From the NCBI GenBank assembly GCA_951406725.2, contig OX597830.1:28830001-28894000 (forward strand): a stretch of 64,000 bases of DNA, in the 5' to 3' direction. Shown here one piece after another: positions 12,364-14,801 of this stretch (position 1 is the first letter of the stretch; each line of letters starts with the position of its first letter). The DNA is from Octopus vulgaris (Eukaryota). The notes beneath the pieces are model-generated. The model worked only from the letters and a program-made list of their open reading frames with translations, had not been told where the DNA came from and searched no databases. The position numbers and the translations under genes were made by a program.

Positions 12364-13484
12364 ATGAATGTATATGTGTATGCGTGTGTCTATATGTGTA
12401 TGTGTGTGTGTATAAACTCTTGCATTTTTGTTACTTATATAACAGATATGAGGTCATCGGGCTTAAGTGTTACATCTGGCAAACTTATATATTATTCAAT
12501 AAAGATTTTATTGTAAAATTATTTACCTTAGTTTGTATTCTATTTCGTTGCATATATTTCAGAATACGTCTATGAACATCTGAGATATACATATATGTGT
12601 GCATGTTCAATACATACAAAGACTTGTTTTTTTCTTGGACAATTCTTTTCCTTCTCTCCGACTTTTATATAGATATATCACTTTCTTAAATACACGATTT
12701 TGTTTATATATACATACCTATACAATATATAGATTTATACATGTAAGTATGTGTATATGTATGTGTTTGTGTGTTTCTGTTGTACGGCAGTTTTGTTCCT
12801 TACAATTTTACTTGTTTGGTCAAGTACCCCAAATCAAACTGCCTTTCCATTTACTATACCATACCATGTTTGCCCTGCATGCAACTGTCTTACTGCCACT
12901 AAGTTTCTGCTGAACAATAGCTACCTTTTGAAATCATTTATTGTCACGTACGGAATCCTTTACCGGAATGACTATAAGTAAATTTAAGACAAGTTATTAG
13001 CCACAGATACACACGTTCAAACATCCAGAACAGCAAATTTTTAATAGTTTATACAAGTAGGATTTTTTTTGTTTTAAAGTGTCTAGCCGGCGGGTGCTTA
13101 AAATACAGTGGAGCATATGACAGCTCGTAACGCCCTCGCTACATAGTTCTTAGATTACTGGCGGAAAGTAGACTAAGTTTCTTGGCTGAGTTCCACTTTC
13201 TACATTTCCAGTTTATTTATATTTCCTGAGGTGCTTTATATGATATATATTTAGCACTAGATCAGCCTTGATATTCATCCGTGATTATGCTATATTTGTG
13301 TTTATCTAGACCCACATGTTCAACTGAGTTCTAATAGTGTGAGATGACAGGATCGCATCTGTAAATATTTCTTCCTCACCATACAATGAAGAATTGCAGT
13401 TCTATATTTAAGAGATTAGGAAATATGTGCATTATTTACATTATTTATATTTAACGAATATTTGTCCTCATCTTGTTTGTTTTT

Positions 13485-13530
13485 AACACAACGTTTCGGC
13501 TGATATTCCCTCCAGCCTTCTTCAGGTGTC
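13485..13530 (-). ncRNA. minimal type-I hammerhead ribozyme motif (family H1)
   Basis: Minus strand reads gacac-CUGAAGA-aggcug..cagcc-GAAA-cg-UU-guguu: intact core, stem I, stem II and palindromic ACGU stem III. Confidence 0.75.
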
Positions 13531-13578
13531 TTGGGGATATTTTGTCTCTCTCTCTCTAAGGTATAATTTTTGCTGTTC

Positions 13579-13816
13579 TAATAATAATAATAATAATAAT
13601 AATAATAATAATAATAATAATAATAATAATAATAATAATAATAATAATAATAATAATAATAATAATAATAATAATAATAATAATAATAATAATAATAATA
13701 ATAATAATAATAATAATAATAGTAGTAGTAGTAGTAGTAGTAGTAATAATAATAATAATAATAATAATAATAATAATAATAATAATAATAATAATAATAA
13801 TAATAATAATAATAAT
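13579..13816. repeat. (AAT)n microsatellite with an (AGT)n interruption
   Basis: Direct reading. Confidence 0.98.
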
Positions 13817-13866
13817 ATCGAAAACTATACCTTAGGAATGAGAACCCATGTTCGAAATTTCCCCAA

Positions 13867-13913
13867 GACACCTGAAGAAGGCTTTGAGGGTACATTAGCC
13901 GAAACGTTGTGTT
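13867..13913 (+). ncRNA. minimal type-I hammerhead ribozyme motif (family H1)
   Basis: gacac-CUGAAGA-aggcu..agcc-GAAA-cg-UU-guguu; homologous to the 13485-13530 copy in opposite orientation. Confidence 0.75.
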
Positions 13914-14801
13914 AACAACAAATTTGTACAGAACAGTAAATTGTTACAGAACGGCAAATGGGGTCGTAGATTTTGCCCTTTTACGCTAAGAATCCTTCAC
14001 TCAATATATCCTGGAGAGCTTATCATACTACATTCCGTCTTTTCGTATGCAAATATATAAAATTTATCTCCTTGCCCTCTGCTCTACAAGTTCTTCTGGC
14101 CAAGAAGTTCTGCTGTTCTGTACAAAAATCCCCTACCGATATTTTTGTTATTAAGTTTTTTTCTGTAACTGCGATGAAGCTAAAATTTCCACTTGTTTGT
14201 TTTATATTTAAGAAGGAATACTTCCATGCAACTAATATATGGAGGGACCACATTTGAAATCGTGTACTATGTGCTACTGATATTATCGTTGTCACTAGTG
14301 TTGCTGTCTTGTAAATGATTTATATTAAAGTGACTAGCAATTGTACTTGTACGGGGGTGGATGTGCTGAAAGGTTCCTTGCTTTAAGAGTATGGCAAAAG
14401 ATCTGGTTGAGGGCCCAACCTTCCGAGTTATTTTCTTGCATTTAGAAAAACTGGAGGACTGATGCAAAGTGTGTGAATCTGAGAGAGGAATATATTGAAT
14501 AAAATCATAATTAACTGATCCACCTGTATTTTCTTTTACCAGGATCTTTTCAGCGCACCCTTCTATTGTCCATTTACTTCTGCCTCTTTCACACAGCTCT
14601 ATGGTGCGTTTCAATTTTGTGTTGTTTGCTTGCAACAATTCTAGTGTTTGATTTTGTAGCATACTTTTGTGTGGTAGCCATTTGTAAATTTGTCATGCAT
14701 TTAAATACAATCGTAAAATTATGTGAAACAAAATTCTTTTCCTTCTCTAACCTCAGCTATCGAGGGCAATCCTTCTTTGTATCTAGTCTTTATTCTTCTT
14801 T

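What the first reader, a model, noticed from the sequence alone, without database searches (positions are those of the whole stretch)
13400..13925. Two hammerhead motifs in divergent orientation sharing one (AAT)n tract
ccccaagacacCTGAAGAaggct..agccGAAAcgttgtgttaa occurs on minus (about 13483-13536) and plus (13861-13915) around a 238-bp (AAT)n tract. The core is intact in both while the stem II loop has diverged. Homology continues toward the tract (ctaaggtata / tataccttag). Stem III is only the palindrome ACGU, so cleavage at GUU would need dimerisation, as for PLE minimal hammerheads. Transcription in either direction would meet one sense ribozyme. The site lies downstream of the putative minus-strand terminal exon.
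Basis: partly seen in the sequence, partly recalled or inferred. Interest (0 to 1): 0.72.

Follow-up and report, generated by a model that had tools for sequence, protein, structure and literature searches.

The report
Head-to-head Penelope retroelement hammerhead ends
Two back-to-back small hammerhead ribozyme motifs are the cut-short ends of a very abundant repeat that likely moves with Penelope-like jumping genes, an arrangement already described in other animals, and any RNA read across both is predicted to fold into a hairpin that hides the ribozyme.

Summary
Two minimal hammerhead motifs face outward around a 239-bp (AAT)n tract (61 of 68 bases identical; cores at + 13872-13908 and - 13525-13490). 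Both are fragments of a dispersed repeat: 6,976-12,839 contigs per run fit the left copy in four DNA runs. The family has two preferred ends 33 bases apart (13397 and 13430), which matches the Penelope-like element (PLE) 'tail'. The left copy has the tail and the right does not. The left copy is present in one relative. In a relative whose flank differs at 22 of 394 bases, the orthologous contig leaves at the element's edge, read as an empty site. Dual minimal hammerheads 100-700 bp apart on opposite strands, and head-to-head PLE ends with a tail on one side, are in print. The functional reading is not supported. A read-through RNA is predicted to pair the two arms (62-65 kcal/mol against the ribozyme fold), no same-strand partner exists for the dimer, and the nearby long ORF shows no sign of being a host exon. 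One insertion or two remains open. Only the family's size (order 10^5, rough) is mildly new.

The parts
13397..13578 (-). Left copy: 5'-truncated end fragment of a high-copy PLE-type repeat, long form with tail; degenerate at about 13543-13556 (CT run)
   Evidence: Family depth begins at 13397 and ends near 13542; loose ends at both places; alignment to right copy
13397..13429 (-). Optional 33-base tail between the family's two preferred ends
   Evidence: Loose ends with unrelated flanks at 13397 (186/201/134/165 contigs in X2/X4/X8/X10) and 13430 (168/158/109/117), agreement 0.41-0.43
13485..13530 (-). Minimal type I hammerhead motif, left; predicted cut 13490/13489
   Evidence: Descriptor hit and fold: stem I 5 bp, stem II 6 bp, pair probabilities 0.75-0.99 when folded alone
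13579..13817 (+). (AAT)n tract with an (AGT)8 interruption, between the 5' ends of the two copies
   Evidence: TRF 79.7 copies; regex
13818..13922 (+). Right copy: same repeat, 5' end at the tract, 3' end 46 bases short of the family's short end, no tail
   Evidence: blastn and alignment to left copy; its inner part matches the family's loose-end consensus behind 13542 (compared by eye)
13867..13913 (+). Minimal type I hammerhead motif, right; stem II only 4 bp; predicted cut 13908/13909
   Evidence: Descriptor hit; stem pair probabilities about 0.4 alone and 0.0 in a longer context from 13700
13914..13959 (+). 18-bp tandem repeat (2.6 copies) overlapping the right end of the right copy; possible microhomology at the junction
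   Evidence: TRF

Best explanation
The locus is two 5'-truncated end fragments of a very high-copy hammerhead-bearing repeat, set head to head around an (AAT)n tract, likely laid down in one Penelope-type insertion and likely inert as a ribozyme. Shown: both motifs; the dispersed family; its two end classes 33 bases apart; the tail on the left copy only; the left copy in organisms A and B; an orthologous contig of organism E that leaves at the element's edge. Inferred from published PLE work: an autonomous PLE RT-endonuclease acted in trans, nicked AT-rich DNA, started reverse transcription at internal sites of the RNA (which gives the tail or no-tail ends), and made the inverted half in the same event, by priming on both nicked strands or by self-priming. 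The two short cDNAs would join at their truncated 5' ends. Predicted: a read-through RNA in either direction pairs arm with arm and cannot fold the hammerhead, and an RNA with one arm has no dimer partner in cis.
For: Family and ends: (10,863/12,839/6,976/11,088 contigs laid; single-copy depth in the flank; loose-end clusters at 13397 and 13430/13431). Published architecture: dual min-HHRs about 100-700 bp apart on opposite strands; inverted 5'-truncated copy with a 30-40 bp tail at one end; head-to-head as the most frequent inverted form, with a 31-bp optional tail; a PLE protein nicks at ATT, extends both strands and starts at two internal sites. One event: these are the only 2 copies in 64 kb, and chance adjacency within 300 bp in opposite orientation is 0.5-1% at assumed densities of one copy per 15-32 kb. 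Both arms differ from the family majority to a similar degree (3 and 4 of the 7 arm differences, assigned by eye). Both carry an A after GGTAT where the family loose-end consensus has T. Inertness. The active double-hammerhead fold is predicted to be 1.7-3.1 kcal/mol less stable than two monomers and 2.6 kcal/mol less stable than the form with A14-U17 paired. Single min-HHRs showed no cleavage in vitro.
Against: The right end is at neither family end class, and no target-site duplication over 6 bp was found. The letters of organism E's contig beyond the junction were not printed, so a join of left and right flank is not shown, and the right copy was never laid on reads. The left copy differs from the family majority at 8 of 113 positions, more than an insertion after the A-E split predicts (P about 0.02 for 9 in 146). 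The arm differences avoid the core and stems (P 0.006-0.012; 0.04-0.07 given that intact cores are why the site was picked). No autonomous PLE ORF was linked to the family.
Confidence: 0.6

Rival explanations
1. Two independent insertions of the same family at the two edges of an (AAT/ATT)n hotspot, equally inert. Differences in the loop would then come from different source elements.
For: The arms differ at 7 of 68 columns, all outside the core and stems once the one indel is placed in the T run, as selection on source elements would give. The inner segment is only 51% alike. ATT and (AAT)n targets are reported for PLEs. The consensus flank next to the 13397 end reads ATAATA in 4 of 4 runs (low agreement, related species). 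No target-site duplication was found.
Against: The right copy's letters at 13502 and 13505 equivalents are not listed among variants at 5% or more, so they are not a common subfamily. Two other long AAT/ATT tracts in the window (23842-24416, 37314-37434) have no copy. Head-to-head with one tail is the published single-event pattern.
Confidence: 0.26
2. Secondary rearrangement: two older neighbouring copies were brought together by deletion of the DNA between their inner (ATT)n and (AAT)n runs, which also removed one run and damaged the left inner segment.
For: The left inner segment is degenerate (CT run) while the right matches the family. The tract reads AAT into the right copy but ATT into the left, so only one orientation survives. 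The left copy looks older than the A-E split.
Against: Organism E's contig leaves exactly at the left copy's edge, which points to a young insertion. No intervening DNA was seen in any relative; this was not testable here.
Confidence: 0.1
3. The host keeps the pair as an RNA element: a bidirectional cleavage or termination device, or an editing hairpin, in a transcript that crosses the locus.
For: Both cores and all stems I are intact, and the arm differences avoid them. The predicted hairpin is strong (z -11, longest helix 24 bp). Inverted repeats are the main ADAR substrates and Penelope is heavily edited in lizard.
Against: The hairpin and the ribozyme exclude each other. The left copy appears absent in organism E. 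Family copies decay at CpG sites inside the core (G12 position 4-7%, neighbours 8-11%, against 10-15% outside). The right copy's changes break two distal stem II pairs without compensation. No host exon was shown.
Confidence: 0.04

Closest known systems
Minimal hammerheads (min-HHR) of metazoan Penelope-like elements (Cervera & de la Pena 2014, PMC4209133)
   Same: Type I; helix I of 5 bp; unpaired base between A9 and G10.1; G10.1-C11.1 pair; palindromic 15.2-16.2 with no loop 3; dual motifs 100-700 bp apart on opposite strands
   Different: Helix II is 6 and 4 bp here against 7-8 bp in S. mansoni; the family seems about ten times larger than the largest count given there (about 9,000 in Xenopus), on a rough depth ratio; no PLE ORF was linked
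PLE insertion units with inverted pLTR and tail (Arkhipova et al. 2013, PMC3846280; Craig et al. 2021, PMC8557442; Frangieh et al. 2024, PMC11167929)
   Same: Head-to-head inverted 5'-truncated copies; optional tail of 30-40 bases on one end only; two end classes; AT-rich or ATT target
   Different: A long microsatellite instead of a palindrome at the inner junction; no target-site duplication found; right end short of both end classes; no coding sequence
Non-LTR retrozymes (bioRxiv 10.64898/2026.07.22.740005) and hammerhead-bearing SINE-like repeats of Schistosoma (review PMC6765202)
   Same: Non-coding, hammerhead-bearing, likely mobilised by PLEs
   Different: Retrozymes are head-to-tail tandems with the motif in each unit; this pair is inverted. 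No promoter head is present at this locus

Membership tests
PLE minimal hammerhead (min-HHR) | Catalytic boxes CUGANGA, GAAA and NUH | tested here: met
   16 of 16 core bases identical in both copies and fitting the descriptor
PLE minimal hammerhead (min-HHR) | Short helix I (4-5 bp), extra base between 9 and 10.1, G10.1-C11.1 | tested here: met
   Stem I 5 bp, extra A, G-C first pair (definition)
PLE minimal hammerhead (min-HHR) | Long helix II (7-8 bp in S. mansoni) | tested here: inconclusive
   6 bp left, 4 bp right; the right copy has lost distal pairs
PLE minimal hammerhead (min-HHR) | Palindromic 15.2-16.2, no monomeric helix III | tested here: met
   ACGU with no loop in both
PLE minimal hammerhead (min-HHR) | Self-cleavage as a dimer | not testable with these tools
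   Only folding energies; the active dimer is not favoured
Penelope-like element insertion | Optional 30-40 bp tail, two end classes | tested here: met
   Loose-end clusters at 13397 and 13430/13431 in 4 of 4 runs
Penelope-like element insertion | Dispersed, 5'-truncated copies, inverted copy at the 5' end | tested here: met
   Unrelated flanks at family ends; head-to-head pair
Penelope-like element insertion | RT and GIY-YIG ORF between pLTRs (autonomous partner) | tested here: inconclusive
   None at the locus; no genome held to search; no family loci in the collections
Penelope-like element insertion | Target-site duplication (8-10 bp, optional) | tested here: not met
   Only 5-6 bp chance-level matches; optional, so not excluding
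Non-LTR retrozyme | Head-to-tail tandem with a hammerhead in at least two consecutive units | tested here: not met
   The two copies are inverted; no same-strand second core in 64 kb (definition)
Rfam hammerhead families | Match to a covariance model | tested here: not met
tRNA-headed SINE with hammerhead | Pol III promoter head upstream of the motif | tested here: inconclusive
   Both copies stop at the tract; ARAGORN finds 0 genes in the window; the family's 5' part was not seen

The most novel reading that the evidence does not exclude
The repeat is a non-coding, PLE-mobilised family that has spread on the order of 10^5 minimal hammerheads through this genome lineage, about tenfold more than the published counts read here. 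At that density the motifs could dimerise in trans or in tandem arrays and cut host RNAs, while head-to-head insertions such as this one would make ready-built dsRNA hairpins that silence the ribozyme and feed A-to-I editing.
Probability: 0.12. Interest if true: 0.55.

Novelty: new member of a known kind. Interest (0 to 1): 0.17.

Why it matters
The locus itself matters little: it is one more example of a published PLE insertion pattern. What could matter is the family. If the rough depth ratio is right, it is a very large set of minimal hammerheads in an animal group where none of five searches of the held library listed a paper describing one. Its many tail and no-tail ends and inverted pairs would allow a statistical test of how PLEs build the inverted half.

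Tried and rejected
Rfam scans gave no hammerhead match. No whole genome is held, so inverted versus solo copies could not be counted. Pattern scans found 0 loci in viral contigs, metagenome contigs and prokaryote genomes, so no family alignment or covariation test could be made. Organism D's contig stops at 13256, so it says nothing on the site. Table 3 lists no variant between 13510 and 13545, but it has exactly 40 rows and may be cut, so it was not used for the CUGA box. The target-site duplication search gave only 5-6 bp matches. ORF 14267-14692(-) as a host terminal exon: no Pfam family; none of 175 longer candidates scored; 7 phmmer hits over residues 19-116 only; the 6 looked up have no names; 6 of 7 have no Pfam family. 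A mariner origin for it is recalled from the look of the plus frames; the direct comparison with the window's mariner-like ORF was not significant (scores 18-21). Luense et al. 2017 is not held; only its title was seen. Earlier-findings look-ups by sequence, place and a first word set found nothing.

Full report
Observation. The arms 13855-13922 (+) and 13542-13476 (-) agree at 61 of 68 columns, with 0 of 500 shuffles reaching the score. The segment toward the tract agrees at 22 of 43 columns (7 of 500 shuffles), and the 80 bases outside do not agree (86 of 500 shuffles). A descriptor for a minimal hammerhead finds these 2 sites in the window and none in 100 of 100 locally shuffled windows. 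Each motif has a 5-bp stem I, CUGAAGA, an extra A, stem II (4 bp right, 6 bp left) and GAAAC followed at once by GUU, so helix III is only the palindrome ACGU. The tract is 13579-13817 with an (AGT)8 break. Rfam has no matching model.

What it belongs to. No genome is held and the contig collections hold no copy. I therefore laid 4 of the 24 listed runs on 13000-13600 at 80% likeness. The flank has single-copy depth, while 10,863, 12,839, 6,976 and 11,088 contigs fit the left copy. Peak summed depth over flank depth is 1.1-1.8 x 10^5. The tool warns that summed depth is no copy number, so this is an order of magnitude at best. Contigs leave the element into unrelated AT-rich sequence at 13397 (186, 201, 134, 165 contigs) and at 13430 (168, 158, 109, 117) and 13431, with a further cluster at 13437 that may reflect the left copy's 9-bp duplication. 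Only 24 loose-end rows were shown and 793 were not. The family thus has two ends 33 bases apart. Behind 13542 the family consensus follows the right copy, so the left copy is the degenerate one there.

Age. A single-copy contig runs from the flank into the left copy in organism A (0 differences in 460) and organism B (8 differences). In organism E the orthologous contig fits 13000-13395 with 22 differences in 394 and goes on with letters that do not fit, 114 by the record's coordinates. I read this as an empty site; the letters were not printed. Organism D is uninformative. Against a young age, the left copy differs from the family majority at 8 of 113 positions, which is high for an insertion after that split (P about 0.02 for 9 in 146). 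A distinct source element, old polymorphism or loss in E could explain it; this is unresolved.

Comparison with the literature. Cervera and de la Pena 2014 (PMC4209133; parts 1-2 of 4 read, supplements not) define min-HHRs with these features. They report dual motifs about 100-700 bp apart on opposite strands, no cleavage by a single motif and low cleavage by dimers. Craig et al. 2021 (PMC8557442; passages) describe an inverted 5'-truncated copy and a 30-40 bp tail often at one end only. Arkhipova et al. 2013 (PMC3846280; passages) call head-to-head the most frequent inverted form and note (AAT)n-like targets. Frangieh et al. 2024 (PMC11167929; parts 1-2 of 4) show nicking at ATT, extension on both strands and two internal start sites that bound the tail; hammerhead cleavage was not needed for insertion in vitro. 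Also seen: a review (PMC6765202; passages), the retrozyme preprint (10.64898/2026.07.22.740005; part 1 of 5), an editing survey (PMC5625713; passages) and an Octopus vulgaris repeat annotation with 0 mentions of hammerhead or ribozyme in its main text (PMC13282606; part 1 of 3 and passages; supplements not read and they may list this family). That the window is octopus-like is recalled from its repeat landscape and comes from no call.

How it likely works. The pair is the product of retrotransposition. An autonomous PLE protein likely acted in trans; the left cDNA began at the long start site and the right at or was trimmed to a shorter one; the two halves met at their 5' ends. These steps are inferred. 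For one event: these are the only 2 copies in 64 kb; chance adjacency is 0.5-1% at assumed densities; both arms carry a similar load of private changes; both share one base against the family consensus. For two events: no target-site duplication, an atypical right end, and differences that avoid core and stems (P 0.006-0.012, or 0.04-0.07 once selection of the site for intact cores is allowed for; the one indel was placed in the T run, outside the stem, though the aligner put it at 13883). Whether the tract is target or part of the template could not be told.

Function at the locus. An RNA across both arms is predicted to fold arm on arm (-146.9 kcal/mol, z -11), with all 16 core bases paired on either strand and a cost of 62-65 kcal/mol for the hammerhead stems. 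An RNA starting in the tract forms the left motif's stems with probability 0.3-0.4 and the right motif's with 0.0. The catalytic double hammerhead is predicted to be less stable than two monomers by 1.7 (left-left), 2.4 (left-right) and 3.1 (right-right) kcal/mol; such models leave out core and tertiary contacts. In the family, CpG decay reaches into the core: 4-7% at G12 and 8-11% at its neighbours, against 10-15% at a CpG outside. The lower value at G12 may be context or selection on source elements. No transcription unit was shown, and the long minus-strand ORF at 14267-14692 has no support as a host exon.

Verdict. Real, and ordinary in kind: a head-to-head PLE-type insertion with minimal hammerheads. 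Membership of the min-HHR class is met on sequence features, with cleavage untested. Membership of PLE insertions is met on tail and architecture, with the coding partner unseen. It is not a retrozyme. Earlier AI notes on other genomes reached similar readings; they are leads and were not checked. Interest 0.17, mostly for the size of the family.

Noticed in passing
run X4 laid on window 13458-13542 (table 5c): A contig at depth 1587 (flank 57) leaves at 13542, has 21 other letters and re-enters at 13458. This reads as a head-to-tail tandem unit of about 106 bases holding the whole motif, a retrozyme-like array in organism B where dimers could form in cis.
   Followed up: no
runs X2 and X4 laid on window 13397-13537 (table 5): 3 of 15 listed joints change strand inside the element, at single-copy depth, so other inverted junctions exist in the family.
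   Followed up: no
window 14359-14560: Degenerate inverted repeat (14359-14380 with 14539-14560, 17 of 22; 18 of 1000 shuffles as good). The plus frames between look like the end of a decayed mariner transposase (recalled, not shown). The 141-aa minus ORF may be its antisense shadow.
   Followed up: partly
window 23408-23840 (-) and 23842-24416: An ORF fragment that looks like the restriction-like endonuclease end of a non-LTR element (Dong/R4-like, recalled; no Pfam family at cut-off) abuts a 575-bp (TTA)n tract.
   Followed up: partly
window 13914-13959: An 18-bp tandem repeat overlaps the right copy's end, and 14 bases of it recur inverted at 14113-14126.
   Followed up: partly
window 42084-42338 and 42923-43171: Two near-identical mariner-like transposase fragments 839 bp apart (label recalled; Pfam gave only a weak DDE hit, E 0.045).
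   Followed up: no
window 32569-33304: Four tandem copies of a 184-bp unit (92% matches) of a repeat that also occurs dispersed, for example at 15509-15805.
   Followed up: no
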